Of a stretch of DNA of 64,000 nt, positions 4,221-26,869 are shown in pieces. A model generated the notes under the pieces. That model saw only the letters and a list, made by a program, of their open reading frames with translations, had not been told where the DNA came from and made no database searches. The translations under genes were made by a program, and so were the position numbers. Position 1 is the first letter of the stretch; the number at the start of each line of letters is the position of its first letter. Source of the DNA: Flavobacteriales bacterium (lineage in GTDB: Bacteria > Bacteroidota > Bacteroidia > Flavobacteriales_D > Sanyastnellaceae); the NCBI GenBank assembly GCA_049594615.1, contig JBMYJR010000002.1:39028-103027 (forward strand). Reading direction: 5' to 3'.

Positions 4221-5819
4221 ATGACCATTCTTCGCGCAGCATACATCTGGATAGCGGCCTTGATCCTCGGCCCGGTGTGTTGCAGCGCGCAACAAGACCT
4301 CCACAAGTGCTGGGTCCATTTCACTGACAAGCACGGTGCTAACTTTGATCCCAACACGTATTTCCATCCCAAGGCGTTGGCCCGCCGTGCCCAGTTGGGG
4401 CTGGATCCTGCCGATTCGCTCAATTGGCCGGTCTCTCCCGACTATCTGCGTGAGACCCAGGCGCTGCTCGTCACCCACACGGCCACTTCACGCTGGTTGA
4501 ATTTGGTGGTGGGATATGCCTCGCAGGATGACATCGAAGCATTGCGAGCGTTGCCCTTCGTGCGGGAAGTACGCCTCGAAGACAAGCCACTCGAAATGCT
4601 CCAAGCGTTGGAAACCCTGCCCACCGGATATGACCGCAACGTGCTTGAGGCCCAAACCGCCGTGTTGGGCCGATGCCATTTTGAAGCCGAGGGACTCAAC
4701 GGCCAAGGGCTGCGCATTGCAGTGTTGGATGCGGGATTTTCTGGGGTAGACGAGCGCCCGGCATTTGCCCACCTGTGGGACCAAGGGCGCATTGTGGCCA
4801 GCTATGACTTTCTACGCAAACGCGAGAACGTATTTGTGCACAGCTCACACGGCGCCCATGTGCTCTCCTGCATTGCGGGCAAGGTGGACACGGTGCCCAT
4901 GGGACTGGCCACCGGCGCGGAATTCATCCTGTGCCGCACCGAAAAGGCCCGGTTTGAATACCGCGGCGAAGAAGAGCATTGGCTTGAAGCCGTAGAGTAC
5001 GCCGATCGCTTGGGCGCTGACATCATCAACTCCTCGTTAGGCTACACCAACACCCGCTACTACCAGTACGAAATGGACGGCCGTACGGCAGGGGTCACCC
5101 AGTCCGCACGGATTGCTGCCCGCCTGGGCATGCTTGTGGTCAATGCCGCTGGCAATGAGGGCGACACCTGGTGGCAAGTCATCGCAGCTCCAGCCGACGC
5201 CGACAGCGTGTTGGCCGTCGGTGCAGTTGACCCAGAAACCCGGATGCGCAGTGGTTTTTCTTCATTTGGTCCCAGCAGTGATGGGCGGATCAAGCCGGAT
5301 GTAGCGGCCTTTGGTTGGGCCTATGCCAGCGGCCCCCGCCGCAACGAAGTGGTGCCAGGAACCAGTTTTGCCAGCCCCTTGATTGCCGGGTTTGCCGCCT
5401 GCGTATGGCAAGCCCACCCGGACTGGAACAACATGCAAGTCTTGGAAGCCGTGCGCAAGGCGGGCCACCTGTATCCCTACTATGATTACTCTTACGGCTA
5501 CGGGCTGCCCCAAGCCGATCGGGCCCTTGGACTTTCTGCCGAGGCGGACACCACCTTTGACGTCTCTGTGCACAAAGGCCGGTTGGTGTTGACGGTTCGC
5601 GAAGGTTCTGCACCGGAAGCTAACTGCGAGGGCGGTATTTTTGCCACGTTGCCACATACGGTGCACTGCCACTTTCAGACGCCGGGCAAAGGGCTGAGCT
5701 ACTACGCCACTTACGCAGTGGTCCCCGAGGAGCGCATCACCCTGAATTTGAAACCCTACCGCGGAATGATTCTGCGGATCTACTGCAATGGATACCTCTA
5801 TGAACGCAAACTGGAATAG
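4221..5819 (+). CDS. Secreted subtilisin-like serine peptidase, family S8
   Basis: Signal peptide [24 protein letters not shown]. Catalytic triad motifs AVLDAGF (Asp), [11 protein letters not shown] (His) and [12 protein letters not shown] (Ser). Confidence 0.85.
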
Positions 5820-6540
5820 CCGTCTGCTGGCCCTGCTGCTCGCCTTTACCACCTTGAGCGCATCGGCCCAACTCCCCGATGAATCCCGCGATGTAGACGC
5901 GGCCAGCACCTTGGCTGGTCCCCGTGGTCCGCGCGCTGTGTACGTGGATTACGGCCTCGGACTCATTTTGCCTGGCGGCGAAACCGACACCCTGCAAAAC
6001 GAGGGGTGGAGCAACAACTTTTGGTACGGCGTGCAATTGCACCGTAACCTCAACAACACCTTTGGCGCAGGCATTGAGCTGGCCTACGTGCGCAACAGCT
6101 ACAATCTTGCCCAAGACACCATCAACCCGCTCGGCGACACCCAGGTGCACGACCAGCAGCGCTACATCCAAAACGGCTTGGGCCTGATGGTCTATGGCCG
6201 CGTCCAATTGGCCAACAACGGCAACAACCAAGGCCGCTACTTGGATGTGGGGGTGTTCAGCAATTTTTGGCTGGGCGAACGCCTCCACACCGAAAACGAA
6301 GTCGACCCTTCCACCAGTGGCGGCGCCAACGTGGCCGAGTCGGACTTGAAAAAACTTGATTACACCAATGCACTGACCTACGGAGGTTTTGCCCGTGTGG
6401 GATTCGGATCGTTCTACCTGTTTGGTCGCTACCGCGCAAGTGACTTGTTCACCGCCAACGACAACGTCAACAACGGCGTCAAGTTGTCGGAGTTTGAGCG
6501 TATTAGTGTAGGCATCGGATTCAGTGTATTCACCCAATAA
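5788..6540 (+). CDS. Outer-membrane beta-barrel (porin-family) protein, paralog 1
   Basis: Signal peptide (M)[23 protein letters not shown], alternating beta-strand pattern, aromatic C-terminus (GIGFSVFTQ). An alternative start lies at 5800. Overlaps the end of the S8 gene. Confidence 0.6.
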   Translation: MDTSMNANWNSRLLALLLAFTTLSASAQLPDESRDVDAASTLAGPRGPRAVYVDYGLGLILPGGETDTLQNEGWSNNFWYGVQLHRNLNNTFGAGIELAYVRNSYNLAQDTINPLGDTQVHDQQRYIQNGLGLMVYGRVQLANNGNNQGRYLDVGVFSNFWLGERLHTENEVDPSTSGGANVAESDLKKLDYTNALTYGGFARVGFGSFYLFGRYRASDLFTANDNVNNGVKLSEFERISVGIGFSVFTQ

Positions 6541-6550
6541 TATTGGCCTT

Positions 6551-7324
6551 ATGAAACTGTTCAACGCCCTTGTGCTGTGCACCGCTGTCTGGTGCGCGGC
6601 CCCCAATCTCCAAGCCCAAAGTGATGTTCCACCACCTCCTTTCGACGGGTTTGCGGAGGTCAACCGCACCGGTTTGGTGACCGGCTCTGGCTGGTCTTAC
6701 TACGGCGTAGGCTTCTACGCCCTCGACCAAGAAGCCTCCAACCCTGAAACCCAAGGCTCTTCGTTCTCGATCTGGGGATCAGAGCACGTGATGGACTACC
6801 GCGCAGGACGCGTGTCCCTCGCGCTGGAAACCTTGGGAAGTCGCCACCAATTCAACCTGTCTCAGGACAGCATTTCACCGTTGAGCTTTGGCGGCACCTA
6901 CGACCGTCAGCGCTTAATTACGTATGGTTTGGGCGTACAACTCACACTGCGTCTTTCTTTGGAGCCTTCTTCACGTTTGGCTTACGAACGCACCTTGGAA
7001 GGCGGCGGTTACTTCGCATGGAATTACTCGCGTCGCCTCAAGTCCTTCATCGACATCGACCCGGCGCAAAACCAAGGCGCTCCTGAAAACAAAATTGTCC
7101 AGAAGAAGCTGGCCTACGTAAATCCCATTGAGTTTGGGGTCTTTGGCCGCGTCCACATCAACCGCATGTACCTCTGGGGCCGCATGCGCCTGAGCGATTT
7201 TTTCGTGCAACAAGACGGGGTCAACCCGGTGACCGATACCAACGGCGGATCCACCTTTGTCAAGCTTAACGAACTCGAGCGCTTGGCCATTGGTGTAGGC
7301 TTCTGCATCAACAGTAGCAATTAA
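6551..7324 (+). CDS. Outer-membrane beta-barrel (porin-family) protein, paralog 2
   Basis: Signal peptide MKLFNALVLCTAVWCAAPNLQAQ. The C-terminal block LNELERLAIGVGFCI matches LSEFERISVGIGFSV of the upstream gene. ATG 6551 preferred over the GTG at 6524. Confidence 0.6.
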   Translation: MKLFNALVLCTAVWCAAPNLQAQSDVPPPPFDGFAEVNRTGLVTGSGWSYYGVGFYALDQEASNPETQGSSFSIWGSEHVMDYRAGRVSLALETLGSRHQFNLSQDSISPLSFGGTYDRQRLITYGLGVQLTLRLSLEPSSRLAYERTLEGGGYFAWNYSRRLKSFIDIDPAQNQGAPENKIVQKKLAYVNPIEFGVFGRVHINRMYLWGRMRLSDFFVQQDGVNPVTDTNGGSTFVKLNELERLAIGVGFCINSSN

Positions 7325-7333
7325 TCTGATGGG

Positions 7334-7897
7334 GTGAAGAATTACTACCGCATCCTGGATCTGGAGCCATCGGCGTCGGAGGCTGACATCAAACAAGCCT
7401 ACCGCCGATTGGCCAAACAATGGCACCCGGATGTCAATGGGGCCGCCCAAGCCCGGATGCGGTTCATTGAGGTCAACGAGGCGTATGAGTTCCTGATGGA
7501 TCCGCGCCGCCGTGACCTCTATTCACGCCGATCTACCATCGACGAGCGTGAACGCTTGCGCCGCGAAATGCTGTACAAGCAATGGGTAGCTCAGCAACAG
7601 CAACAGGCCCGCAACAAGGCCAAGCGCTACGCAGAGCGGCCTATGGATGAGTTCGTGAATTCGCCCATTTTCAAGGCGGCCATGCGGGTCAGCCATGTAT
7701 ACAATTACATCTTCATTGCCGTAGGGATCATCATCACCTTCGGCCCTGGAATCAAATACTTGATGATGACTGCCGAGGAGTTGGAAGAGCGACAGGTCAC
7801 CACAGCCTCTGTGGTGACACCCATGATTATGGGCGCGCTATTTACCTACGGCATTTATACCTTCCTGTTCAAATACAACCCTGACCGCGATGCGTAA
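7334..7897 (+). CDS. J-domain (DnaJ-like) membrane protein
   Basis: N-terminal J domain YYRILDLEPSASEADIKQAYRRLAKQWHPDVN with the HPD motif. Two C-terminal hydrophobic helices. GTG start. Confidence 0.75.
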   Translation: MKNYYRILDLEPSASEADIKQAYRRLAKQWHPDVNGAAQARMRFIEVNEAYEFLMDPRRRDLYSRRSTIDERERLRREMLYKQWVAQQQQQARNKAKRYAERPMDEFVNSPIFKAAMRVSHVYNYIFIAVGIIITFGPGIKYLMMTAEELEERQVTTASVVTPMIMGALFTYGIYTFLFKYNPDRDA

Positions 7898-10097
7898 CCT
7901 GCTGCTGCACTCTTGGGCCACCTTGCTTTTGGCCCTCACCGTTTCTTTCTCCGCCCACGCCACCGAGGGCATGTGGATTCCCACCTTGCTCAAAGCTGTG
8001 GAGGGCGACATGCAAACCTTCGGGCTCGAGCTCACCGCCGCGGACCTGTACAGCGTCAACCAAAGCAGCCTCAAGGACGCCATAGTGCTCTTTGGTGGCG
8101 GTTGCACTGCCTCGGTGATTTCCAAAGACGGCTTACTGTTGACCAACCATCACTGTGGCTACAGCCAAATCCAACAGCACAGCTCGGTGGAGCACGATTA
8201 CTTGAAGGACGGATTTTGGGCCGCCTCGCACAAAGACGAATTGCCCAACCCGGGGCTGACCGCCACCTTCATTGTGCGCATTGACGATGTCACGGGAGAA
8301 ATGAACAAAGGCATCACCGCGGGCATGAGTCCCGAGGCCGAACAAGAACTGTTTGAAGCCAACCGCAAGCGCATCGAAGCTGACGCCACCGAAGGCACAG
8401 CCTATGCTGCTCGCGTCAAGGCTTTCAACTATGGCAACAGCTATTTTGTAATCGTGACCCGCACTTTTGACGATGTGCGTCTTGTGGGGGCTCCGCCGTC
8501 TTCCATCGGCAAGTTTGGGGGAGATACCGACAACTGGGTGTGGCCGCGCCATACCGGTGACTTTTCGCTCTTCCGCATTTACGCCGGCGCCGACAACGGC
8601 CCTGCAGCGTATAACGAGGCCAACCGCCCGTGGCAACCCGAAGAGCACCTCAAGGTCAATATGGATGGCGTGCAGGAAGGCGACTTCACCATGGTCTACG
8701 GCTTCCCCGGACGCACTTCGGTGTACTTGACCAGTTATGCGGTGGACTACGTGATGAACCGCTCCAACCCCATGCGTATCGACATGCGTCGCAACAGCTT
8801 GGCGCTGATCGACGCAGCCATGCTGGCAAGCGATACGGTGCGCATCCAGTATGCCGCCAAACAGTCACGCATCTCCAACGCCTACAAAAAATGGCAAGGG
8901 CAGAACTTTGGCCTGGAGCGCAACCGTGCCCTGCAAAAAAAGGCCGACATCGAGGCTCGCATGCGTAAAGCAGGACCCCAATACGTAGACCTGTTAGACA
9001 AGTTTGAGCTGGTGTACGCCCAACTCAACGATGCCCAATTTGCCCGCGAATTGTTCATTGAATATTACTACTACGGCCCCGAAGTCTTGCGTTTTGCCGA
9101 GCGTTTCCGGCTGTTCGAACAATGGGAAGAACTGGCCGCCAAGGGCAAACTCGATCGCGCCACCGCTGATTTGGAAGCGAGCTTCGACGGCTACTTTGGC
9201 GACTACAACTACGCGTTGGACCAAGCGCTTTTTGCCAAACTCACCGAGCTCTACCTCGGCTACGCCGACCCCAGCACTGTACCGGCTGTCCTCCATACCT
9301 GGAAGGCCAAGAACGGTTCCTGGGAAGCTGCAGCCAAGGCCATCTATGCCAAGAGTATGCTTACCACCGAGGAGGATGTACAGGCCCTGATGGACATGTC
9401 GCCCAAAAAGGCCTTGAAGAAACTCATCAAGGATCCCCTCTACCTACTGATGAAGGCGGTGCGTAGCAGCTACTTTGAACACACCGCGACCAACTACAAC
9501 GCCTTAAAGGCTGAAGAAGAAAAACTGATGCAAACATGGGTGGTAGGCCTGGTTGATTATTTCCCAGACCGCACCTTCTGGGCAGACGCGAATAGCACCT
9601 TGCGCGTGACCTTTGGTAAGGCCGAGGGCAGCGCCCCCAAGGACGGTATGGAGTACCACTACCGCACCACGGCTGATGGCATCTTGCAGAAGTACATTCC
9701 TGGCCACGCCGATTTTGACCTGCCTACTGCCATGGTAGACCAACTCCGTGCCCGCGACTACGGGCAATGGGCCGGCGCCGACGGAGAGCTGCAAGTGTGT
9801 TTCACCGGTTCCAACCATACCACTGGCGGAAACTCGGGCAGCCCCACGCTGAACGGACGTGGTGAGCTCATTGGACTCAACTTCGATCGGAGCTGGGAAA
9901 GCACCATGAGCGACATCTTGTTTGATCCCGAGATCTGCCGCAACATCATGGTGGACATCCGCTATGTGATGTGGGTCGTGGACCGCTACGCTGGGGCCAC
10001 ACATTTGATTGAGGAGCTAACCCTGGTGCGCAACCCCAAGGAACGGCCCGAGATGGATGCTTTACCCGAGCTTAACACGCAGCTCGAACAAGACTAA
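7890..10097 (+). CDS. S46 family dipeptidyl-peptidase (DPP7/DPP11-like)
   Basis: Signal peptide followed by EGMWIPTLL. Catalytic His region LLLTNHHCG and catalytic Ser region GGNSGSPTLN. The ~735-aa length is typical of S46. Confidence 0.85.
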   Translation: MRNLLLHSWATLLLALTVSFSAHATEGMWIPTLLKAVEGDMQTFGLELTAADLYSVNQSSLKDAIVLFGGGCTASVISKDGLLLTNHHCGYSQIQQHSSVEHDYLKDGFWAASHKDELPNPGLTATFIVRIDDVTGEMNKGITAGMSPEAEQELFEANRKRIEADATEGTAYAARVKAFNYGNSYFVIVTRTFDDVRLVGAPPSSIGKFGGDTDNWVWPRHTGDFSLFRIYAGADNGPAAYNEANRPWQPEEHLKVNMDGVQEGDFTMVYGFPGRTSVYLTSYAVDYVMNRSNPMRIDMRRNSLALIDAAMLASDTVRIQYAAKQSRISNAYKKWQGQNFGLERNRALQKKADIEARMRKAGPQYVDLLDKFELVYAQLNDAQFARELFIEYYYYGPEVLRFAERFRLFEQWEELAAKGKLDRATADLEASFDGYFGDYNYALDQALFAKLTELYLGYADPSTVPAVLHTWKAKNGSWEAAAKAIYAKSMLTTEEDVQALMDMSPKKALKKLIKDPLYLLMKAVRSSYFEHTATNYNALKAEEEKLMQTWVVGLVDYFPDRTFWADANSTLRVTFGKAEGSAPKDGMEYHYRTTADGILQKYIPGHADFDLPTAMVDQLRARDYGQWAGADGELQVCFTGSNHTTGGNSGSPTLNGRGELIGLNFDRSWESTMSDILFDPEICRNIMVDIRYVMWVVDRYAGATHLIEELTLVRNPKERPEMDALPELNTQLEQD

Positions 10098-10416
10098 CTT
10101 CGGGTTCGCCCGCAGACGGTGTCCAAGGCAGAAGGGAAACCACGGGCCCTTGGGAATCAAGCCAAAAGGAAATCTGCTCGGAGACGTAAAAAAAGGACCT
10201 TCCCAACGTCAAGATGAGCATGGTCGTTGGAGGCAGTTTGAGGCAATGTGCAGTGCGCTCGGCTGTGTATTTATAGCACAGGAAGCAAGTGGTTCTAACG
10301 CGATGCGCTGGAACCACGTCGCACGTGGAGTCGTTATCTGGTGGGCAACTCCATGCTCAAGGCGTTGACTGTTCAAAAGCTGTTCAGCCCTGAGCCGCCA
10401 CTGGCTTGAAGCCAGA

Positions 10417-10521
10417 TCAGACCATCAGGTAGATCGAGAGGATAACAATGGCAAACAGGATCAGTGCAAATACAACTGGTCCGCCAATCTCGTTCTGTTC
10501 TGCTTCTTTGTGATCGCCCAT
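10417..10521 (-). CDS. Possible 34-aa single-pass membrane peptide
   Basis: MGDHKEAEQNEIGGPVVFALILFAIVILSIYLMV: a charged N-terminus and one hydrophobic helix. A small hairpin (ctggcttcaagccag) follows immediately on the minus strand. This is the only coding-like part of track ORF 10417..11046. Confidence 0.3.
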   Translation of the reverse strand: MGDHKEAEQNEIGGPVVFALILFAIVILSIYLMV

Positions 10522-10780
10522 GGCTTTCTGATTTGTTTCCGGCAAAATTAGGAAAGGCCCGCGCGAGGGCAAACCGCTCCGCGGATTATTTCCCCTCTCG
10601 CCCCACAAACCATTCGTACGCATATTCGTGCAGCTCATACCTGCATTGCGACCATTCATACCCCGAAAAAGGTGCGCACGAAAGTGGAGGTGTACATTTG
10701 ACACACGCAGCACCCGTGTGCTGCTGGTTAGCAAATGGTTTTCGCTCGGAAAGTCATTCGTTTTAGTTTTAAGTGTTTTG

Positions 10781-10812
10781 AGTCCCTTATAACGATAAGG
10801 GACTTTTTTTTT
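10781..10812 (+). terminator. Rho-independent terminator with no obvious upstream + strand gene
   Basis: agtcccttat-aacg-ataagggact hairpin (10-bp stem) followed by 8 T. Confidence 0.8.
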
Positions 10813-10891
10813 GCCCTCCAACATTGGTGCAGGGTAGGGTTGGATGGTAGCCTGTGATGGTCGTACCTTATGGGGCTTAAACCAACCTGCA

Positions 10892-13261
10892 ATGAATAGA
10901 GTACTAATGCTTTGCGCTTTGATGTGCGCGATGGTCACCACGGGCATAGCCCAGTGTGACGACGGCGAAATGCAAATCGAAATCATCATCAACCCCGACC
11001 AATACGACTGGGAAACCAGCTGGGATCTGGTCGGTGTTTCCACCACTTATGCCAGCGGATTAGCAGAAGGCGCCACCGTGTGCGTGCCTGAAGGAGACTG
11101 CATTTCTTTCCTGCTTCACGACTCTTACGGCGACGGTATTTTCAACGCGGACGCGTACACCATCAACATCGACGGCGAGCTTTTTGAAACCGGCACGTTC
11201 GACGGGCATGAGCACCAAGTGATCATCGATTGCTGGGAGGGAGGTGTGTGCGATACAGCAACTGCGATTGAACCGGGAGATTGGGTCGCCTCAAATGGCA
11301 ACGCTTGGTATACGTTTACCCCCGAGGTGAACGGCATGTATTTGGTGACAACCTGCGCCGAGGCCAACACGTGCGACACACGCATATGGATCTACGACTA
11401 CTGCAACATGTCCAACTTTGACAACAGCAATGAGGGATCCATCTATTTCGATGACAATGAAGGTGGGTGTGGAGAACAAGCCCAGTTCAATGCGTTGTTG
11501 GAAGGAGGGGTAACCTATTGGATTCGGATTGGGAGCACCGCGGGAGATTGCGGAGGTACCGATGTGTTCTGGAGCTTGAGCTACAATGGCTTGCCTGAAG
11601 GTTGCACGGATCCTGAAGCTTGCAATTACTCACCGATTGCTGATCTCGATGATGGCACTTGCGTGTATGAAGGTGATCCCTTGTGTGCAGCGCCAGACTT
11701 GATTATCGTCGAAGAAGCCATCGCCAACAGCATTTATGCCGAAGTGATGTTTGTAGACGAGAGCGATTGTTACATCGAAGAGGGCTGCCTAAACGGGTAC
11801 GGTGAGCGCGAGCTTATTCGATTTACGACACACATCAAGAACATTGGTGATGTAGATTACTACATCGGTTCTGCAGGGGATCCAGATGCTCCCGAGCAAT
11901 TCGAATGGGGTGACTGCCACAACCACTGGCACTACGAAGGATACGCAGCTTACATGCTCACCGATGCAGAAGACAATCTTCTTCCCATTGGACAAAAGAA
12001 TGGCTTTTGCGTGATGGACCTGGAGTGTTCAGACGGAGGGACTTTTCAATACGGTTGTAGCGTGATGGGTATTTCGGCGCACTGTGGCGACATATACGGA
12101 TCTGGTCTGAGCTGCCAATGGATCGACGTGACAGGCATTGCCGATGGGATCTACAAATTGGGTGTTATTGTGAACTGGGATCACACACCAGATGCCCTCG
12201 GACGTGAAGAAGCATCTTACGACAACAATTGGGGCCAAGTCTGCCTCGAATTGGACCGCACAAGCGGCGAATTAGAAGTGGTTGTCGTCGAAGAAAATTG
12301 TGAACCCTATGTGGATTGCAATGGGAATGTATGGGGCAATGCGACCGTGGACTGCAACGGTGAATGCGGAGGCTCAGCCCTTGCTGGAGATCTGGATGCC
12401 AATGGCGAACAGGAGTTGATCGATGCTGAAATGTACGTAGATCATATCCTGGGTGATGACATCGAAAGCACGCTATGTAACGACCTGAACGCGAGTGGCA
12501 GCATTACTGTCGCAGATGCCGCACTCTTGAGCCTGTGCAATGTGTACAATCTCGCTCACGAACACCCAGACAGTTCTGGGGTCCACAACAAATGCAATCT
12601 GCCTACCGATAACATTGTAAATGTCTTCGATACCACCACCTTCTCGATTGGCAATGTCAACTTCAATGAGAATTATTTGGATGTTCATGTGAAGAACCCC
12701 TACAACCGCATTGTAGGCTACCAGTTTTCGCTGACAGGGTTGGAGATCACCTCAGTGGTGTCCATTGCGGATCCGATAGGTTACCCGATTACTCCTTCAT
12801 TTTTGTTGGGTGGTCAAGAGGTTATCGGATTGAGTTACCAAGATTCTAGTTTGGCCAAGAGTCCAGAATTCCAGGCGTTGTGCCGTGTGTACTTTATCAA
12901 TCCTGAAGATGAGATTTGTATTGACCCCGTAGTGGATGTGGTGAATGAGGATTATCACACCACCTTGCATAATGTGGTTGATGGTTGTGTGATCAGCAGT
13001 TCTGTTGACGAGGTGGCACTCCAACGTGAAGTCATGTTCTCACCCAATCCCATGACCCAAGAGGCCACATTAAGCTTTTACAACCCCACACGCGAACAAT
13101 TCACCCTGGTCATCACCGATTTGGCCGGACGTGAGGTGATGCGTCAGACCGGTATCACCGGAACTTCTGTGCGCATTGATCGCGGCGATTTGGCGGTAGG
13201 AACGTACCAATACGTCTTGCAAGGACGTATACGTTACACCGGCAAATTCGGTGTGCGGTAA
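10892..13261 (+). CDS. Secreted multidomain lysyl oxidase (LOX)-like copper amine oxidase with dockerin-like pair, cohesin-like module and T9SS type A C-terminal sorting domain
   Basis: Signal peptide MNRVLMLCALMCAMVTTGIAQ. The LOX catalytic domain (nt ~11690-12253) aligns by eye to animal LOX: LIRFTTHIKNIGDVDY; FEWGDCHNHWHY, which carries the Cu His triad CH-xH-xH; GQKNGFCVMD, the LTQ lysine; CGDIYGSGLSCQWIDVTGIADGIYKL, the LTQ tyrosine; and SYDNNWGQVC. The C-terminus (FSPNPMTQEATLSF...GTYQYVLQG) is of Por_Secre_tail type. Confidence 0.85.
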   Translation: MNRVLMLCALMCAMVTTGIAQCDDGEMQIEIIINPDQYDWETSWDLVGVSTTYASGLAEGATVCVPEGDCISFLLHDSYGDGIFNADAYTINIDGELFETGTFDGHEHQVIIDCWEGGVCDTATAIEPGDWVASNGNAWYTFTPEVNGMYLVTTCAEANTCDTRIWIYDYCNMSNFDNSNEGSIYFDDNEGGCGEQAQFNALLEGGVTYWIRIGSTAGDCGGTDVFWSLSYNGLPEGCTDPEACNYSPIADLDDGTCVYEGDPLCAAPDLIIVEEAIANSIYAEVMFVDESDCYIEEGCLNGYGERELIRFTTHIKNIGDVDYYIGSAGDPDAPEQFEWGDCHNHWHYEGYAAYMLTDAEDNLLPIGQKNGFCVMDLECSDGGTFQYGCSVMGISAHCGDIYGSGLSCQWIDVTGIADGIYKLGVIVNWDHTPDALGREEASYDNNWGQVCLELDRTSGELEVVVVEENCEPYVDCNGNVWGNATVDCNGECGGSALAGDLDANGEQELIDAEMYVDHILGDDIESTLCNDLNASGSITVADAALLSLCNVYNLAHEHPDSSGVHNKCNLPTDNIVNVFDTTTFSIGNVNFNENYLDVHVKNPYNRIVGYQFSLTGLEITSVVSIADPIGYPITPSFLLGGQEVIGLSYQDSSLAKSPEFQALCRVYFINPEDEICIDPVVDVVNEDYHTTLHNVVDGCVISSSVDEVALQREVMFSPNPMTQEATLSFYNPTREQFTLVITDLAGREVMRQTGITGTSVRIDRGDLAVGTYQYVLQGRIRYTGKFGVR

Positions 13262-13278
13262 TTCCACTAAACACAATA

Positions 13279-13316
13279 CCCCGATCGACGTGAAACCACG
13301 ATCGGGGTTTTGTGTT
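13279..13316 (+). terminator. Rho-independent terminator of the lysyl oxidase-like gene
   Basis: ccccgatcg...cgatcgggg hairpin followed by ttttgtgttt, 18 nt after the stop. Confidence 0.75.
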
Positions 13317-13401
13317 TCACTTGTGTGAATCTTTCGTTAACAAGACCGTGCAACCTTCTGTATCTTTACCGTGTCTGTTTTGAGACGCGAAACCGCCTGC
13401 A

Positions 13402-16400
13402 ATGCGAATATTTTTGAACCATGCGATCATCCTGCTTGCGCTCTTGCCCTTCTCGGGCGCTGCCCAAGTGGTGATCAACGAATTTACAGCTGCCAACTAC
13501 AACGACTGGGACGTGGGCGACGAACACGACTGGATTGAGTTGTACAATACCGGCACGGCTGCCTTTGATCTGTCCGGACACTTCCTGTCGGACAACATGG
13601 ACAACCCCGATAAATGGGAATTCCCTGCCGGTACCGTTTTGAACGCCGGTGAGCACGCAGTGGTGCTCTGCTCGGGCTTGGGCGACACCAACCCCTACGC
13701 TTTTGGATACATGAATTCCAACTTCCGCCTCCGCCAAACCGGCAACGAGGAAGTGGTGTTTACAGATCCTTCGGGGACCATTCTGGAGGTCTACGAGTTC
13801 AACGTGATCGGTGCGGTACAGACAGACATGTCTTGGGGCCGCAACGGCGATGGTGGTGCCGACTGGGTCATCTATCCAGACCCCACCCCGAATAACAGCA
13901 ATACTGGTCCTACTGGCACGGCGTTCGCCGCGAAGCCACAATTCAATTTGGAAGCTGGCTACTACCCAGCATCCATCGAAGTGGAAATCACAACCCCCGA
14001 AGCAGGGGCAGAGATCCGTTACACCTTGAACGGTGATGCACCCACCGCCGCGTCCACCCTGTATACCGGCCCCATCACGGTGGCCAATACAACGGTGATT
14101 CGCTCTGTAGCCATCCATCCGGATGACAATATCTTGGACAGTTTCAATGAAACCAACACCTACTTCATTGGTGCTGATAGTCACGTGATCCCAGTGGTCA
14201 GTGTTTCAGGGGATGATATCGGCGACGGTTCTTGGCCTTGGGGCGATGGTGAGGTGTGTGCCATCGAGTTCTTTGACGAAAACGGCGTGTTCATTGACGA
14301 CGCAGAAGGCGACTCCAACGAGCATGGCAACGATTCAAACGCCTACGACCAGCGCGGGTTTGATTACATCACCCGCGACCAGATGGGGTACGACCATGCC
14401 ATCCACCACAACCCGTTCCCGGGCTACACCGATCGCGACGAGTACCAGCGTTTCATCTTCAAGGCTGCGGCCAACGACAATTACAGTTTTGCCAACGGCG
14501 CGCACTGCCGTGACCTGTTCTGCCACATGATCTCCGAAGCCGGTGACATGAAGTTGGACGAACGCCGCGGCTCCTACTGCATTGTATACCTCAATGGAGA
14601 ATACTGGGGCGTGTACGACATCCGCGAAAAGGCTGATGACTTGGACTACACCCGCTACTACTACGACCAACCCCGCGGTTTTGTGGATTGGCTCAAGACT
14701 TGGGGCGGTACCTGGGAAGAGTACGGTACGGGCGATGACTGGTACGACTTGGTAGACTTCATTACCGGCAACGACATGACCGATGCGGCCAACTACGAGT
14801 ACGTGGAGTCGCAGCTCAACACCAAGAGTTTGATCGATTACTTCATCTTGAACACTTACGTGGTAAGTGCCGACTGGCTCAACTGGAACACCACTTGGTG
14901 GCGAGGACGTCATCCAGACGGCGACGCCAAGCGCTGGCGCTATGTCCTGTGGGACTTGGATGCCTCCTTTGGCCACTACGTGAACTACACCGGTATCCCT
15001 GACACTGGCCCCACCGCAGATCCATGTGACCCTGAAGGCATGGGCGACGTGGGCGGTCAAGGACACATCCCCGTACTCAACGCACTGCTGGACAACGAGG
15101 AATTCTACAGCACCTACCTCGCACGCTACGCATCGTACAGCAACACCATCTTCAGCTGTGAGTACATGAATGCGTTCTTGGACTCCATCACCGGCGTGAT
15201 CGCCCCCGAGATGCAACGCCAAGTGGACGTCTGGGGAGGCACCTACGCCGGCTGGGAGGATGCCATCCAAACCATGCGTGACTTCATCAACGACCGCTGT
15301 GCAGATGAGCTCATCGGCGGCATCGAAGATTGCTACGATGTTGAAGCAGTAACTGTGACTGTGATCATTGACGGCATCGGCCAAGTAGAAGTCGAAAACG
15401 CATTGATCAACTGGGACGAGTCTCCATGGGTGGGTACTTACTACACCGACATCGGCATTGACTTTGATGCCTTTGAGACTGCCGGTGTCTTTCTGGGTTG
15501 GGAAGTCTTGGAGGGGGACGTCACCATTGACGACCTGCTAGATCCAAGTTTCGAAACCACACTTACGGGGAACATCACGATTGTTGCTCACTTCGACACC
15601 AACATCGATCCGCAATTGGTCATGTACGACGTACAACCGGCAGGAGCAGGGGACATCCTTTTGGACGGGGCCTCAACAGCGCCACACGCCAACACCATCC
15701 TGACCGATGGTGGTACCCGTGTGATCACTGCTGTACCCAACGAGTGGTACGTGTTTGACGATTGGGACATCCTGAACGCCACCTTCATCCCTGGTGCTTC
15801 GGATACCACCGGAGCGGTCTTTATCAACCAGACCGATACCATCATCGCCAACTTTATAGAGATCCCTCACTTTGATGTGATGGTGGACGTTCAACCTGCA
15901 GGTGCAGGGTCCATTTCCATCGATGCGCTGGACTACCCAGACCTTCCTTGGGAAGGTACTTTGGCAGGTGAGGTAGACCTCCAGTTCGTCACCTCTCCTG
16001 TGGACGAGTGGAGTGAGTTCCAATACTGGATGGTGAACAACCACGTGGTGAGCCCAGACGAGTTCTCGGCCAACATGGTATTGAACCTGAACCAGACCGA
16101 TACCATTGTGGCGGTCTACGAAGTGACTCCACACAACGAAATCACGGTCATGATCGATCCCCCGCTTGCCGGCGCCGTGAAGCCCGGTGACGGCCCCATC
16201 GTTCAGGACAGCTGGACCGATGAGGTCGAAGCAGGCGTTAATCACTTGTATGTGGCTACGCCCATCGACTTCTGGCGATTTACCGGCTGGTCGGCCAGCA
16301 ACCACAGCCCTACGCCAGACAACCGAGAGCCTGTAGTAAACTTCAATTTCTCCCAGAACGACACCATCGTGGCGCACTTTGAAAAAGAAGAGTTCTCGTT

Positions 16401-16680
16401 CTACGTGCCCAACTCTTTCTCACCTGACAACGACGGTATCAATGAAGTGTGGCAACCGGTCAGCGGTGCCATCGATGCCGACAACTACGAGGTGTGGGTG
16501 TTTGGGCGCAACGGCGAAATCGTCTTCCACTCGACCAACCCCAACCAGGTTTGGGATGGCGGCCACACCGGCGGCGACCACTACGTACAGAACGAAACTT
16601 ACGCGTTCCGCATCGTGGTCAAACCGATACATGAATTGGAGCCGCGCACCATTACTGGTCACGTGACCTTGTTGCGTTAA
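13402..16680 (+). CDS. Lamin-tail-domain / CotH kinase-family protein with 4 tandem ~83-aa repeats and T9SS type B (gliding motility-associated) C-terminal domain
   Basis: LTD: VVINEFTAANYNDWDVGDEHDWIELYNTG...HFLSD. Chitobiase-C-like segment AGYYPASIEVEITTPEAGAEIRYTLNGDAPT. CotH core: YLNGEYWGVYDIREK, DYFILNTYVVSADWLNWNTTWW, RWRYVLWDLDASFGH. The C-terminus FYVPNSFSPDNDGINEVWQP...ETYAFRIVV is of type B CTD. Confidence 0.8.
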   Translation: MRIFLNHAIILLALLPFSGAAQVVINEFTAANYNDWDVGDEHDWIELYNTGTAAFDLSGHFLSDNMDNPDKWEFPAGTVLNAGEHAVVLCSGLGDTNPYAFGYMNSNFRLRQTGNEEVVFTDPSGTILEVYEFNVIGAVQTDMSWGRNGDGGADWVIYPDPTPNNSNTGPTGTAFAAKPQFNLEAGYYPASIEVEITTPEAGAEIRYTLNGDAPTAASTLYTGPITVANTTVIRSVAIHPDDNILDSFNETNTYFIGADSHVIPVVSVSGDDIGDGSWPWGDGEVCAIEFFDENGVFIDDAEGDSNEHGNDSNAYDQRGFDYITRDQMGYDHAIHHNPFPGYTDRDEYQRFIFKAAANDNYSFANGAHCRDLFCHMISEAGDMKLDERRGSYCIVYLNGEYWGVYDIREKADDLDYTRYYYDQPRGFVDWLKTWGGTWEEYGTGDDWYDLVDFITGNDMTDAANYEYVESQLNTKSLIDYFILNTYVVSADWLNWNTTWWRGRHPDGDAKRWRYVLWDLDASFGHYVNYTGIPDTGPTADPCDPEGMGDVGGQGHIPVLNALLDNEEFYSTYLARYASYSNTIFSCEYMNAFLDSITGVIAPEMQRQVDVWGGTYAGWEDAIQTMRDFINDRCADELIGGIEDCYDVEAVTVTVIIDGIGQVEVENALINWDESPWVGTYYTDIGIDFDAFETAGVFLGWEVLEGDVTIDDLLDPSFETTLTGNITIVAHFDTNIDPQLVMYDVQPAGAGDILLDGASTAPHANTILTDGGTRVITAVPNEWYVFDDWDILNATFIPGASDTTGAVFINQTDTIIANFIEIPHFDVMVDVQPAGAGSISIDALDYPDLPWEGTLAGEVDLQFVTSPVDEWSEFQYWMVNNHVVSPDEFSANMVLNLNQTDTIVAVYEVTPHNEITVMIDPPLAGAVKPGDGPIVQDSWTDEVEAGVNHLYVATPIDFWRFTGWSASNHSPTPDNREPVVNFNFSQNDTIVAHFEKEEFSFYVPNSFSPDNDGINEVWQPVSGAIDADNYEVWVFGRNGEIVFHSTNPNQVWDGGHTGGDHYVQNETYAFRIVVKPIHELEPRTITGHVTLLR
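15343..16377 (+). repeat. Four tandem ~83-aa domain repeats inside the CotH protein
   Basis: Each unit has V(T/M)V..D(V)QPAGAG...W.(F/Y).(G)W......(T)I(V/I)A.F, for example VMYDVQPAGAGDILLDG...TDTIIANF and VMVDVQPAGAGSISID...TDTIVAVY. This resembles divergent InlB B-repeat-type domains. Confidence 0.7.
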
Positions 16681-19906: not shown

Positions 19907-21433
19907 GTGAAGTACCCTGTTTTTCTGGCCGCTTTACTTGTGGCCTGCACCGCATGGTCGCAAGCTGACTTGCAATCGCCTCCGGAGGTGGTGTTTTCTT
20001 CTTTCATTACCGGACTGAACGACCCGGTGCGACTGGTTCCTGCTCCCGATGGGCGCCTCTTCATCCTGGAGCAATCCCAAGGTGACGTTGAAATCTACCA
20101 GCCCGACGGCACCTACATCGGCACCTTCCTGGACGTTTCTGGACTGATTTCAACCGGTAGCGAACGCGGCCTGTTGGGTATGGCTTTTCACCCGGATTAT
20201 ACTGCCAACGGCAAGTTTTACTTGAACTACACCGATGTGGGCGGAGATACCGTTGTTTCCGAATGGAGCGTTTCATCCAACCAGAATGTCGCAGATCCTG
20301 CAAGCGAGGTGGTGCTGCTGAACATTGTCCAGGATTTCTCCAACCACAACGGCGGGCACATTGCATTTGGTCCTGACGGCCACCTGTACATCGGCACGGG
20401 GGACGGCGGCTCTGGCGGTGACCCGTTGGCCCGAGCTCAAGACGGCCAAAGCCTGCTCGGCAAGATGTTGCGTATCGCGGTGGCCGGCGACGGTACGTAT
20501 ACCATCCCTGCGGACAACCCTTTCCTTGGTGCACCCGGCGTACTGGATGAAATCTGGGCCATTGGCCTGCGCAACCCTTGGAACTTCAGTTTTGACCCGT
20601 TGACTGGAGACCTCTGGAACGGTGATGTGGGCCAAGACCAATTTGAAGAAATCAGCGTGCAGTCTGGCGCCAGCACCGGTGGAGAAAACTACGGATGGCG
20701 GTGTTGGGAAGGGCTGGTGACGTTCAACACTTCAGAGTGTAGCACCTTGCCGCATCACCCTCCGGTCATCACCCACGCCCACACCGGATTTACCGGTTGG
20801 TGCAGTATCACCGGTGGATTCGTGTACCGCGGGACTGAATACCCGGGCATGGAAGGCTACTACCTCTACACCGATTACTGTCTGGGCGAAATACACGCCC
20901 TCAAAGACGACGGCGCAGGAGGCTACAACGCCTACACGGTCAACAGCGATGGCAACTTCGGCTACGTGCATTTGGCCACGGGCACCGACGGTACAGCCTA
21001 CATCGTGGATATCGGCGGCCAAGTACTCAAGGTGGAAGACGCCTGCAACACCTTGCCTGAGATTTCTTTGGACGTTGCGGGCACCTTGGAAGTCAACCTT
21101 GCTGGCGCGACTACTTACACGTGGTACCAAGACGGCTCTGCGCTTACAGGCTCGGATGCCGAAACGTGGACTCCTGCCACGAGCGGCACATACAGCTGTT
21201 TGGTAGATGTAGATGGATGCGTACGCTTGAGCAACGCCCAAGAGGTGGCTGTGCAAGTGGGGGTGCCCGGATGCACCTACGCCAACGCGACCAACTACGA
21301 AGCCAATGCTTCGGTGGATGATGGTTCGTGCCTGTTCACGGACTCCTGTGACGCAGACCTCAACGCTGATGGCACCATCGGCACCGCCGACATCCTAGAC
21401 ATTCTGGGCGCATTTGGAACAGACTGTCCTTAG
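19907..21433 (+). CDS. Secreted PQQ-dependent sugar dehydrogenase (soluble glucose/sorbosone dehydrogenase family) with Ig-like domain, one Cys-rich repeat and one dockerin-like C-terminal segment
   Basis: Signal peptide [19 protein letters not shown] (GTG start). GSDH blocks [43 protein letters not shown]. Tail: [23 protein letters not shown]...[28 protein letters not shown]. Confidence 0.8.
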
Positions 21434-26858: not shown

Positions 26859-26869
26859 TTGGTAAAGGT

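What the first reader, a model, noticed from the sequence alone, without database searches (positions are those of the whole stretch)
11690..12253. Bacterial lysyl oxidase catalytic domain with every catalytic determinant conserved
The segment aligns by eye along its whole length to the animal LOX catalytic domain.
- LIRFTTHIKNIGDVDY aligns with LLRFPQRVKNQGTSDF.
- FEWGDCHNHWHY aligns with WEWHSCHQHYHS, which holds the three Cu-ligand histidines (nt 11900-11935).
- GQKNGFCVMD aligns with GHKASFCLED, which holds the lysine of the lysyl-tyrosylquinone cofactor.
- CGDIYGSGLSCQWIDVTGIADGIYKL aligns with [26 protein letters not shown], which holds the LTQ tyrosine.
- SYDNNWGQVC aligns with DYTNNVVRCD.
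LOX-like domains are known sporadically outside animals but are rare in bacteria. I know of none described as a T9SS surface-anchored fusion. A surface amine oxidase would crosslink or oxidise lysines and generate H2O2 and aldehydes. It could plausibly act on host or prey matrix, on biofilm proteins, or on the co-displayed partner proteins.
Basis: partly seen in the sequence, partly recalled or inferred. Interest (0 to 1): 0.72.

Follow-up and report, generated by a model that had tools for sequence, protein, structure and literature searches.

The report
Secreted bacterial lysyl oxidase family enzyme
This is a real and apparently intact copper lysyl-oxidase domain inside a large exported protein of an uncultured aquatic Flavobacteriales bacterium, and it belongs to a widespread, already annotated but never studied protein family rather than being a rarity.

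Summary
Window 11690-12253 lies in one gene (10892-13261, +; 789 aa). It matches Pfam Lysyl_oxidase PF01186 at 96.4 bits (E 2.4e-27) and human LOXL2 (5ZE3) by sequence (E 2.9e-18) and fold (Foldseek E 4.5e-13). The three copper histidines, the LTQ lysine and tyrosine, and eight framework cysteines all align. The five catalytic residues are invariant in 121 full-length relatives.

It is not rare. There are 942 protein clusters, and at least 576 GTDB species genomes, nearly all uncultured Flavobacteriales. Most share the same eight-module architecture, and NCBI already names some 'lysyl oxidase family protein'. Bacteroidetes LOX was reported in 2015.

New here:
- The anatomy is signal peptide, two beta modules, a Cys knot, LOX, a Cys-rich linker, a dockerin-like module, a cohesin-fold module and a T9SS type A C-terminal domain.
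- The gene order S46 dipeptidyl peptidase - LOX - CotH/LTD (T9SS type B) recurs at about 50% identity.

Most likely it is an exported LTQ/Cu amine oxidase acting on lysine side chains or other primary amines outside the cell. Its biological role is unresolved: cross-linking, amine-nitrogen harvesting or H2O2 antagonism. I rate it a new member of a known kind, of moderate interest.

The parts
10892..13261 (+). LOX-family gene, 789 aa plus stop. An in-frame ATG at 10844 lies upstream but is probably not used.
   Evidence: ORF list. The 120 full-length homologues start at the equivalent of 10892, and M1 is nearly invariant.
10892..10954 (+). N-terminal signal peptide, MNRVLMLCALMCAMVTTGIAQ (aa 1-21)
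   Evidence: Hydrophobic N-terminus seen directly in the sequence and modelled as a helix at residues 2-15. No signal-peptide predictor was available.
10955..11242 (+). N1 beta module (aa 22-117) with an invariant D-x-x-G-D-G ('DSYGDG') motif and 4 Cys; no known family
   Evidence: pLDDT about 90. No Pfam or PDB sequence hit. The same module occurs in the sortilin-like and reprolysin proteins of the window.
11249..11596 (+). N2 beta-sandwich module (aa 120-235), weakly galactose-binding-domain-like
   Evidence: PF23759 GBD_T9SS_assoc matched in 6 of 13 family members, best E 0.0015. pLDDT 73-95 across these residues.
11597..11689 (+). Cys 'knot' linker (aa 236-266), GCTDPEACNYSPIADLDDGTC type
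   Evidence: Family HMM. The motif is repeated 5, 3 and 1 times in three other secreted proteins of the window.
11690..12295 (+). Lysyl oxidase catalytic domain
   Evidence: PF01186 at 96.4 bits. LOXL2 5ZE3 by sequence (E 2.9e-18) and by fold (E 4.5e-13). Family HMM hit at 346.5 bits, the only copy in the window.
11918..11932 (+). Copper-ligand motif H343-x-H345-x-H347
   Evidence: Aligned to LOXL2 H626/H628/H630. Invariant in 121 sequences. Present in 269 of 275 domains.
11996..11998 (+). Lys369, predicted LTQ lysine
   Evidence: Aligned to LOXL2 K653. Invariant in alignment A1. Present in 269 of 275 domains.
12095..12097 (+). Tyr402, predicted LTQ tyrosine
   Evidence: Aligned to LOXL2 Y689. 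Invariant in alignment A1. Present in 269 of 275 domains.
12293..12382 (+). Cys-rich linker (CEPYVDCNGNVWGNATVDCNGEC)
   Evidence: Invariant cysteines C470, C476, C488 and C492. Family HMM. It always precedes the dockerin-like module.
12377..12571 (+). Dockerin-like module with two 12-residue Ca-loop motifs, DLDANGEQELID and DLNASGSITVAD
   Evidence: Pfam Dockerin_1 E 0.11. PDB dockerins 4UYP at E 0.023 and 1DAQ/2MTE at E 0.06 by profile. Two helices in the model.
12599..13018 (+). Cohesin-fold beta sandwich
   Evidence: The domain model's top 17 PDB matches are nearly all cohesins (E 1.4e-5, probability 1.00, target TM about 0.6). There is no sequence-level hit.
13031..13258 (+). T9SS type A C-terminal sorting domain
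   Evidence: TIGR04183 at 24.5 bits, cut-off 23. PF18962 at 24.4 bits, below its cut-off of 27. Fold match to the mirolase C-terminal domain 8QB1, TM 0.76, rmsd 1.9 A.
13279..13317 (+). Terminator-like hairpin after the LOX stop codon: CCCCGATCG, 11-nt loop, CGATCGGGG, then TTTTGTGTTT
   Evidence: Read directly from the sequence. The scan tool missed it because the loop exceeds 8 nt.
7890..10097 (+). Conserved upstream neighbour: S46 dipeptidyl peptidase (Dpp7-like)
   Evidence: PF10459 E 4.8e-217. NF053519 Dpp7 at 601 bits. Found upstream on the same strand in 38 of 64 related loci.
13402..16680 (+). Conserved downstream neighbour: LTD - CHB_HEX_C/Fn3_assoc - CotH - T9SS type B C-terminal domain protein
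   Evidence: Pfam. TIGR04131 at 40.4 bits, cut-off 35. Found directly downstream on the same strand in 33 of 70 related loci, median gap about 50 bp.

Best explanation
The gene encodes an exported, catalytically competent lysyl-oxidase-type amine oxidase that uses copper and a lysyl-tyrosylquinone (LTQ) cofactor.

Inferred sequence of events:
1. The protein crosses the inner membrane by its Sec signal peptide.
2. It folds in the periplasm with many disulfides and takes up copper at His343/345/347.
3. It self-processes Tyr402 and Lys369 into LTQ.
4. The type IX secretion system exports it through its type A C-terminal domain.
5. Outside the cell it oxidises epsilon-amino groups of lysines in extracellular proteins, and probably other primary amines, to aldehydes, releasing NH3 and H2O2.

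The two N-terminal beta modules probably hold the enzyme on a polymeric substrate. The dockerin-like plus cohesin-fold pair, which in this family always accompanies the LOX domain, probably forms a stalk or an assembly unit.

Shown here: domain identity, intact catalytic residues and disulfide framework, export signals, family-wide conservation and conserved gene order. Inferred: activity, cofactor formation, substrate and biological role.

My preferred role is modification or cross-linking of extracellular protein material, either the cell's own matrix or adhesive, or particle or algal surface protein. This may happen together with the co-located secreted CotH-family protein.
For: Domain identity:
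- PF01186 at 96.4 bits over 192 of 204 profile positions.
- LOXL2 by sequence at E 2.9e-18, 33% identity.
- LOXL2 by fold at E 4.5e-13.

Catalytic residues and framework:
- All five catalytic residues and eight Cys, corresponding to four LOXL2 disulfides, align.
- The five catalytic residues are invariant across 121 full-length proteins of 45-97% identity.
- They are present in 269 of 275 domains in a wider set. That argues for selection on catalysis.

Export:
- The T9SS C-terminal domain is supported by NCBIfam and by fold.
- The protein has 35 Cys and is very acidic, as expected for an extracellular protein.

Age of the gene in this clade:
- LOX GC3 follows host GC3 from 0.29 to 0.80 across 31 syntenic loci.

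Gene order:
- The order S46 - LOX - CotH is kept in about half of the species-level loci at about 50% identity. LOX to CotH gaps have a median of about 50 bp.
- The flanking S8 and SDR genes are not kept.
- CotH carries a T9SS type B C-terminal domain.

Precedent:
- The only characterised prokaryotic LOX, from Haloterrigena turkmenica, is an active, BAPN-sensitive amine oxidase with broad amine specificity (PMC6452851).
Against: - No biochemical data exist for any member of this family.
Model confidence is lowest in the active-site loops (pLDDT 65-87 at residues 320-400).
- The Pfam score for the C-terminal domain is just under its gathering threshold.
- In this window a terminator-like hairpin separates LOX from CotH, so co-transcription is doubtful here.
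- About half of the related loci lack CotH.
- No candidate substrate protein was identified.
- The upstream peptidase genes fit a nutritional role just as well as a cross-linking role.
Confidence: 0.7

Rival explanations
1. The enzyme is the same but the purpose is nutritional. A cell-surface amine oxidase strips nitrogen as NH3 from lysine side chains, polyamines or other primary amines in dissolved and particulate organic matter. It works alongside the proteases and peptidases encoded nearby.
For: - An S46 dipeptidyl peptidase lies upstream in 38 of 64 loci.
- The window also carries S8 and reprolysin proteases, a beta-eliminating lyase and an asparaginase.
- The archaeal LOX has relaxed specificity for many primary amines (PMC6452851).
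- From my own knowledge, not checked here: copper-dependent cell-surface amine oxidases used for nitrogen acquisition are described in marine phytoplankton.
Against: - S46 and LOX are separated by 250-500 bp or more, about 800 bp in this window. They are probably not one transcript.
- A protein-degrading heterotroph is rarely short of nitrogen.
- The large binding and assembly modules are more than a small-molecule oxidase would need.
Confidence: 0.25
2. The enzyme is the same but the purpose is antagonism. H2O2 released by lysine or amine oxidation kills or inhibits competing bacteria or algae, or disperses biofilm. This is how the lysine-epsilon-oxidase LodA (marinocine) of Marinomonas works.
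For: - The LOX reaction produces H2O2 stoichiometrically (established chemistry).
- Marine bacteria use secreted quinoprotein lysine oxidases as antimicrobials (PMC3948610 and PMC4699246).
- The protein is exported.
Against: - No immunity, catalase or peroxidase gene is linked in the window.
- The hosts are mostly small-genome free-living aquatic Flavobacteriales, not known antagonists.
- The strict conservation of extra binding modules is not explained.
Confidence: 0.12
3. The domain is a non-catalytic relic used only as a structural or binding module in a surface adhesin.
For: - A few relatives carry degenerate LOX copies lacking the His, Lys or Tyr residues. These are 6 of 275 domains, mainly in proteins with multiple LOX domains.
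- The rest of the protein is built of adhesin-type modules.
Against: - In this protein and in 269 of 275 related domains all five catalytic residues are kept. They are invariant across 121 sequences that are only about 50% identical overall.
- Such conservation is not expected without selection on catalysis.
Confidence: 0.05
4. The LOX segment is eukaryotic contamination or a very recent transfer from an animal or protist into this contig.
For: - The gene's GC3 (0.57) is lower than that of every neighbouring gene (0.62-0.74).
- It has 33% identity to human LOXL2.
Against: - It is one uninterrupted bacterial ORF fused to a T9SS C-terminal domain.
- It is flanked by bacterial housekeeping genes.
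- It is 97% identical to an independent assembly with the same neighbours.
- Syntenic orthologues occur in hundreds of Flavobacteriales genomes, and their LOX GC3 tracks the host.
Confidence: 0.01

Closest known systems
Animal lysyl oxidases, LOX and LOXL1-4 (structure: human LOXL2, PDB 5ZE3)
   Same: - Same Pfam family, PF01186.
- Same fold.
- Same HxHxH copper site and the same LTQ Lys and Tyr.
- Four of the five LOXL2 disulfides align, with the fifth probably present.
- Extracellular location.
   Different: - Only 33% identity.
- No SRCR domains and no LOX propeptide.
- Instead it has two bacterial beta modules, a dockerin-like module, a cohesin-fold module and a T9SS sorting domain.
- Collagen and elastin substrates do not exist in this setting.
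Haloterrigena turkmenica LOX (HTU-LOX), the only biochemically characterised prokaryotic LOX (PMC6452851)
   Same: It is a prokaryotic PF01186 protein with a signal peptide. HTU-LOX shows that prokaryotic members can be active, BAPN-sensitive amine oxidases.
   Different: - HTU-LOX is essentially a single-domain archaeal protein.
- The protein here has eight modules, is bacterial and is exported by T9SS.
- The sequence relationship between the two was not tested here.
Previously catalogued bacterial LOX homologues in Actinobacteria, Deltaproteobacteria, Bacteroidetes and others (Grau-Bove et al. 2015, PMC4448552)
   Same: The catalytic domain is the same. Bacteroidetes were already listed as a LOX-bearing phylum.
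   Different: That survey found almost only single-domain architectures in prokaryotes. This family has a fixed multi-module architecture and is far more numerous than 'a few species': at least 576 species genomes.
LodA/GoxA quinoprotein amino-acid oxidases of marine bacteria (PMC3948610, PMC4699246)
   Same: These are secreted quinone-cofactor oxidases of marine bacteria. They attack the epsilon-amine of lysine and release H2O2 and NH3, so they are a functional analogue.
   Different: - The fold is unrelated and the cofactor differs (cysteine tryptophylquinone).
- They act on free lysine or glycine.
- They need the partner flavoprotein LodB.
- They have no T9SS signal.
Cohesin-dockerin modules of cellulosomes and their non-cellulosomal relatives
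   Same: - The dockerin-like segment has the duplicated 12-residue calcium-loop motif.
- The following module has a cohesin fold (Foldseek E 1.4e-5).
   Different: - Both modules sit side by side in one polypeptide, next to an oxidase.
- The organism is a Gram-negative T9SS bacterium.
- Sequence similarity is marginal (E 0.02-0.1).
- No binding was shown.

Membership tests
Lysyl oxidase family (Pfam PF01186; LTQ/copper amine oxidases) | Significant match to the family profile over most of the domain | tested here: met
   96.4 bits against a cut-off of 20.4, E 2.4e-27, profile positions 1-192 of 204.
Lysyl oxidase family (Pfam PF01186; LTQ/copper amine oxidases) | Three copper-ligand histidines in an HxHxH motif | tested here: met
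   H343/H345/H347 align with LOXL2 H626/H628/H630. They are invariant in 121 relatives.
Lysyl oxidase family (Pfam PF01186; LTQ/copper amine oxidases) | The Lys and Tyr that form the lysyl-tyrosylquinone cofactor | tested here: met
   K369 and Y402 align with LOXL2 K653 and Y689. Each is present in 269 of 275 related domains.
Lysyl oxidase family (Pfam PF01186; LTQ/copper amine oxidases) | Conserved disulfide framework of the catalytic domain | tested here: met
   C293, C299, C342, C373, C379, C389, C398 and C408 align with LOXL2 C573, C579, C625, C657, C663, C673, C685 and C695, which form four disulfides. C451 and C470 may form the fifth. The LOXL2 pairings come from my knowledge of the 5ZE3 paper.
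Lysyl oxidase family (Pfam PF01186; LTQ/copper amine oxidases) | LOX fold | tested here: met
   The best PDB match of the model is 5ZE3: E 4.5e-13, probability 1.00, rmsd 3.5 A over 223 columns.
Lysyl oxidase family (Pfam PF01186; LTQ/copper amine oxidases) | Copper-site geometry and Lys-Tyr juxtaposition in three dimensions | not testable with these tools
   Model coordinates cannot be read. pLDDT is 65-87 at residues 320-400.
Lysyl oxidase family (Pfam PF01186; LTQ/copper amine oxidases) | Bound copper, LTQ formation and BAPN-sensitive amine oxidase activity | not testable with these tools
   This needs purified protein.
T9SS type A cargo | C-terminal type A sorting domain | tested here: met
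   TIGR04183 at 24.5 bits, cut-off 23. PF18962 at 24.4 bits, just below its cut-off of 27. Fold match to the mirolase C-terminal domain 8QB1, TM 0.76, rmsd 1.9 A. The domain is present in 226 of 268 relatives.
T9SS type A cargo | N-terminal Sec signal peptide | tested here: inconclusive
   The hydrophobic N-terminus MNRVLMLCALMCAMVTTGIAQ is visible in the sequence. No predictor was available.
T9SS type A cargo | T9SS machinery in the same genome, and covalent surface attachment versus release | not testable with these tools
   No T9SS core gene lies in the 64-kb window. The neighbouring CotH protein has a type B C-terminal domain, and the relatives are Flavobacteriales. Both make a T9SS very likely.
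Dockerin (type I-like) | Duplicated F-hand calcium loops and helices matching the dockerin profile | tested here: inconclusive
   Two canonical 12-residue loops are seen in the sequence. Only marginal scores were obtained: Pfam E 0.11, PDB dockerins at E 0.023 and 0.06. The top PDB hits are consistently dockerins.
Cohesin | Nine-stranded cohesin beta sandwich | tested here: met
   Nearly all of the top 17 Foldseek hits are cohesins, E 1.4e-5, probability 1.00, target TM 0.5-0.6. This holds at fold level only; there is no sequence-level match.
Cohesin | Binding of a dockerin partner | not testable with these tools
   No interaction data exist. Dockerin-like and cohesin-like modules occur only next to LOX domains in the 85 loci examined.

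The most novel reading that the evidence does not exclude
The LOX - dockerin - cohesin unit, together with the co-located T9SS-secreted CotH-family kinase-like protein, forms a bacterial extracellular protein-modification system. It would build or harden a covalently cross-linked surface matrix or adhesive in aquatic Flavobacteriales, as a prokaryotic counterpart of animal extracellular-matrix cross-linking. The cohesin-dockerin pair would string the oxidase into surface assemblies. The extreme lysine poverty of the cell's own exported proteins would protect them from self-oxidation.
Probability: 0.1. Interest if true: 0.75.

Novelty: new member of a known kind. Interest (0 to 1): 0.4.

Why it matters
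The function of prokaryotic lysyl oxidases is openly described as enigmatic, and only one archaeal enzyme has been assayed (PMC6452851). This locus belongs to a large, coherent and evidently selected clade of exported multi-module LOX proteins in abundant aquatic Flavobacteriales, with conserved gene neighbours. That gives a concrete system for asking what LOX does outside animals. It also gives a possible source of soluble, disulfide-rich but bacterial LOX enzymes for structural and biotechnological work. It corrects the view that LOX is sporadic in bacteria. It does not reveal a new kind of enzyme.

Tried and rejected
- **Second LOX copy in the window.** A family HMM against all six reading frames found only the one domain.
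- **Sequence identification of N1, N2 and the cohesin-like module.**
  - Single-sequence and profile searches of PDB sequences gave nothing significant.
  - Pfam scans of the family members gave only a weak GBD_T9SS_assoc signal for N2.
- **Domain-only structure model of aa 466-712.**
  - It had low overall confidence, pLDDT 60.5.
  - The dockerin part is unreliable.
  - Only the beta sandwich was usable for fold search.
- **CotH neighbour against PDB sequences.** There was no hit, so its kinase residues were not checked.
- **Operon evidence.**
  - The sigma-70 and terminator scan is not suited to Bacteroidetes promoters and gave counts no higher than shuffled controls.
  - The hairpin after the LOX stop codon was found by eye.
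- **Rfam.** No RNA family was found anywhere in the window.
- **H2O2-defence linkage.** A YaaA-like gene lies near LOX in loci L002-L005, but none was found in this window.
- **Lysine depletion as a LOX-specific self-protection trait.** Rejected as specific, because all exported proteins in the window are equally lysine-poor.
- **Recent horizontal transfer suggested by low GC3.** Rejected, because of conserved synteny and because LOX GC3 tracks the host across genomes.
- **Literature on T9SS-linked, flavobacterial or 'bacterial' lysyl oxidase.** Nothing relevant was found.
- **Phylogeny against eukaryotic, archaeal and other bacterial LOX.** Not attempted. The available searches return only the nearest (flavobacterial) relatives, and I had no verified outgroup sequences.
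Full report

Yes. The segment lies in an ORF at 10844-13261 on the + strand. The 120 closest full-length homologues begin at the second Met (10892, MNRVLMLC...). I therefore use a 789-aa numbering from there.

Three independent tests support the LOX assignment:
- Pfam gives Lysyl_oxidase PF01186 at 96.4 bits, E 2.4e-27, cut-off 20.4. It covers profile positions 1-192 of 204.
- The only significant PDB sequence match is human LOXL2 (5ZE3), E 2.9e-18, with 33% identity over 159 aligned positions.
- An AlphaFold model of the whole protein, built from 121 sequences (pLDDT 84.7, pTM 0.65), has 5ZE3 as its best structural match. Foldseek gives E 4.5e-13, probability 1.00, 223 columns at rmsd 3.5 A.

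**2. Catalytic determinants**

In the phmmer alignment, His343/345/347, Lys369 and Tyr402 fall on LOXL2 His626/628/630, Lys653 and Tyr689. The LOXL2 numbering is from my memory of the 5ZE3 paper. It is self-consistent with the alignment at a single offset.

Eight cysteines align with LOXL2 C573, C579, C625, C657, C663, C673, C685 and C695, which form four of its five disulfides. The NN...C motif with C451, together with C470, probably supplies the fifth.

The five catalytic residues are invariant in 121 full-length proteins that are only 45-97% identical. They are present in 269 of 275 LOX domains in a wider set of 267 relatives. The exceptions are mostly extra copies in proteins with several LOX domains. 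This is strong evidence for selection on catalysis.

I could not measure the site geometry, because model coordinates are not exposed. The active-site loops are also the least confident part of the model (pLDDT 65-87).

**3. The rest of the protein**

Family HMMs, Pfam, NCBIfam and two structure models give this order:

| Module | Residues (789-aa numbering) | Evidence |
|---|---|---|
| Signal peptide | 1-21 | hydrophobic N-terminus |
| N1 beta module | 22-117 | invariant D-x-x-G-D-G (DSYGDG here) motif; no known family |
| N2 beta sandwich | 120-235 | weakly like PF23759 GBD_T9SS_assoc, 6 of 13 members, best E 0.0015 |
| Cys 'knot' | 236-266 | about 30 residues |
| LOX domain | about 267-468 | see sections 1 and 2 |
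| Cys-rich linker | about 468-497 | invariant cysteines |
| Dockerin-like module | 496-560 | two canonical 12-residue calcium loops, DLDANGEQELID and DLNASGSITVAD |
| Cohesin-fold beta sandwich | 570-709 | Foldseek hits to cohesins |
| T9SS type A C-terminal domain | 714-789 | NCBIfam and fold match |

- For the dockerin-like module, the best PDB and Pfam hits are consistently dockerins, but only at E 0.02-0.1.
- For the cohesin-fold module, the top 17 PDB hits are nearly all cohesins (E 1.4e-5, probability 1.00, target TM about 0.6). This comes from a domain model whose sandwich part has pLDDT 70-92.
- For the C-terminal domain, TIGR04183 scores 24.5 bits against a cut-off of 23. Pfam PF18962 scores 24.4 against 27. 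The fold matches the mirolase C-terminal domain at TM 0.76.

The protein has 35 Cys, 16% Asp+Glu and only 0.9% Lys.

**4. How common is it?**

The protein search returned 942 clusters. The top 120 are all full-length (E < 1e-243) and carry PF01186, mostly with PF18962. Some are already named 'lysyl oxidase family protein' or 'T9SS type A sorting domain-containing protein' by NCBI. One cluster is 97% identical and comes from an independent assembly with the same neighbours.

Nearly all are uncultured Flavobacteriales MAGs (Crocinitomicaceae, Cryomorphaceae and others) from seas, lakes and sediments. Several carry two paralogues.

The LOX domain alone finds 2567 clusters at 50% identity with E <= 1e-3, of which 248 have E <= 1e-30.

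Of 268 relatives analysed, 167 have exactly the architecture N1-N2-knot-LOX-linker-dockerin-cohesin-CTD. Variants duplicate the N-terminal modules or the linker-dockerin-cohesin unit, up to six times in P0159.

In 85 related loci, every dockerin-like and cohesin-like module (88 of each) lies just downstream of a LOX domain. None occurs in a neighbouring gene. LOX-dockerin-cohesin therefore behaves as one super-module.

**5. Gene context**

The window is ordinary chromosomal DNA. It carries parE/parC-type topoisomerase genes, RF3, cytochrome c maturation genes, two-component systems and several exported enzymes.

- Upstream, after an intergenic stretch of about 800 bp, lies an S46 (Dpp7-like) dipeptidyl peptidase. 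It ends a tightly packed run of genes that begins with an S8 protease.
- Downstream, 140 bp away, lies a 1092-aa protein with LTD, CHB_HEX_C/Fn3_assoc and CotH domains. It has a T9SS type B C-terminal domain (TIGR04131, 40.4 bits against a cut-off of 35).

Among 80 species-level loci:
- S46 lies upstream on the same strand in 38 of 64 with enough flank.
- A CotH homologue lies directly downstream on the same strand in 33 of 70, with a median gap of about 50 bp.
- All proteins involved are only about 50% identical.
- The S8 and SDR genes that flank the trio here are not found in those loci. The trio is therefore retained beyond general synteny.
- The longer paralogues lack both neighbours.

In this window a terminator-like hairpin (13279-13317) follows the LOX stop codon. 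LOX may therefore be transcribed alone here.

LOX GC3 is low in this genome, 0.57 against 0.62-0.74 for the other genes. Across 31 syntenic loci, however, it tracks the host from 0.29 to 0.80. That argues for long vertical residence rather than recent transfer.

**6. What it most likely does**

Shown:
- a complete LOX catalytic domain under purifying selection;
- export signals;
- extracellular-type composition;
- fixed accessory modules of binding and assembly type;
- conserved neighbours.

Inferred:
- The protein folds and acquires copper in the periplasm.
- It forms LTQ from Tyr402 and Lys369.
- It is exported by the T9SS.
- It oxidises primary amines outside the cell to aldehydes plus NH3 and H2O2. 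The substrates are most plausibly lysine side chains of extracellular proteins, and possibly free amines too, as with the promiscuous archaeal enzyme (PMC6452851).

I put about 0.85 on 'active exported LOX-type amine oxidase'. The biological role is open:
- **Cross-linking or modification of extracellular protein (preferred).** This would be the cell's own matrix or adhesive, or particle or algal surfaces. I favour it slightly because of the binding and assembly modules and the tight pairing with a second secreted protein-modifying-type enzyme, CotH.
- **Nitrogen harvesting** from amines or lysine residues, which would fit the peptidase neighbours.
- **H2O2-based antagonism**, for which LodA of Marinomonas is a precedent (PMC3948610, PMC4699246).
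- **Pseudo-enzyme.** This is unlikely given the invariant catalytic residues.
- **Contamination.** This is excluded by context.

**7. Comparison with what is known, and novelty**

The domain meets every testable criterion for the lysyl oxidase family. LOX in Bacteroidetes was reported in 2015 (PMC4448552), and databases already annotate these proteins.

Not in the literature I could search:
- the T9SS linkage;
- the eight-module architecture with a dockerin-like/cohesin-fold pair;
- the size of the flavobacterial clade;
- the S46-LOX-CotH gene order.

Earlier papers describe prokaryotic LOX as occurring in few species and as mostly single-domain (PMC4448552, PMC6452851), and this family contradicts that.

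I classify the finding as a new member of a known kind, with moderate interest (0.4). It is a good entry point to the unresolved question of what LOX does in prokaryotes, but it is not a new kind of system.

The one lead that could raise the interest is phylogenetic. Grau-Bove et al. noted unnamed 'environmental metagenomic sequences' grouping with opisthokont LOX. Whether these are this flavobacterial clade was not testable here.

Noticed in passing
window 23346-26858 (-), 26870-29971 (-), 19907-21433 (+): The N1 'DSYGDG' module and the roughly 25-aa Cys 'knot' (CTDPxACNYxxxAxxDDGSC) of the LOX protein recur in other exported proteins of the window. The sortilin/BNR-like protein has one N1 and five knots. 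The reprolysin-like metalloprotease has one N1 and three knots. The GSDH-like dehydrogenase has one knot. They look like shared, uncharacterised building blocks of this organism's secretome.
   Followed up: partly
window 7890-16680; loci L006-L085: The gene order S46 dipeptidyl peptidase - LOX - CotH/LTD protein is kept in about half of the related species-level loci at about 50% protein identity. The genes just outside the trio are not kept.
   Followed up: yes
window, all exported proteins (for example 13402-16680, 19907-21433, 23346-29971, 60038-62245): Exported proteins are strikingly poor in lysine, at 0.1-1.5% Lys, against about 8% in the cytoplasmic ParC, ParE and RF3. They are also very acidic. 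This may be a general trait of this lineage's secretome. Its relation to a surface lysine oxidase is unknown.
   Followed up: partly
window 10892-13261: The LOX gene has lower GC (0.505) and GC3 (0.57) than every neighbouring gene (GC3 0.62-0.74). In other genomes LOX GC3 tracks the host, with a mean difference of -0.02. The local deviation is unexplained.
   Followed up: partly
window 10098-10891: The long intergenic stretch before LOX holds a 34-aa hydrophobic ORF on the minus strand (10417-10521), which was also called as a gene in L001. It also holds a strong terminator-like hairpin with a T-run at 10780-10805 (+), with no obvious gene ending there. There is no Rfam match.
   Followed up: no
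proteins P0159, P0238, P0245, P0255, P0261: Some relatives repeat the linker-dockerin-cohesin unit up to six times (P0159, 1936 aa). Others carry 2-4 LOX domains, and some of those copies have lost the catalytic residues.
   Followed up: partly
homologues of about 1000 aa (for example P0008, P0010, P0011): These carry an insertion of about 190 aa inside the N2 module, with the motif AELGYGDGDEAT...TTYFR. It was not identified.
   Followed up: no
L002, L004, L005 (16887-18436, -): A second LOX paralogue of about 1014-1041 aa with PKD domains lies 6.5 kb from the syntenic LOX gene in these genomes. A YaaA-type peroxide-stress gene lies a few genes upstream.
   Followed up: no
L012, L027, L029, L034, L048, L059, L064, L073: Contigs carrying this typically flavobacterial gene block are labelled Comamonadaceae, Methanobacteriota archaeon or Chryseobacterium MAGs. 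These are probably binning or taxonomy errors in the public records.
   Followed up: no
window 4221-10097 (+): Five genes overlap or abut on one strand and look like one operon: an S8 protease, an OMP beta-barrel-like protein, an unknown protein, a 187-aa ORF at 7334-7897 whose L001 counterpart is annotated DnaJ, and the S46 peptidase.
   Followed up: no
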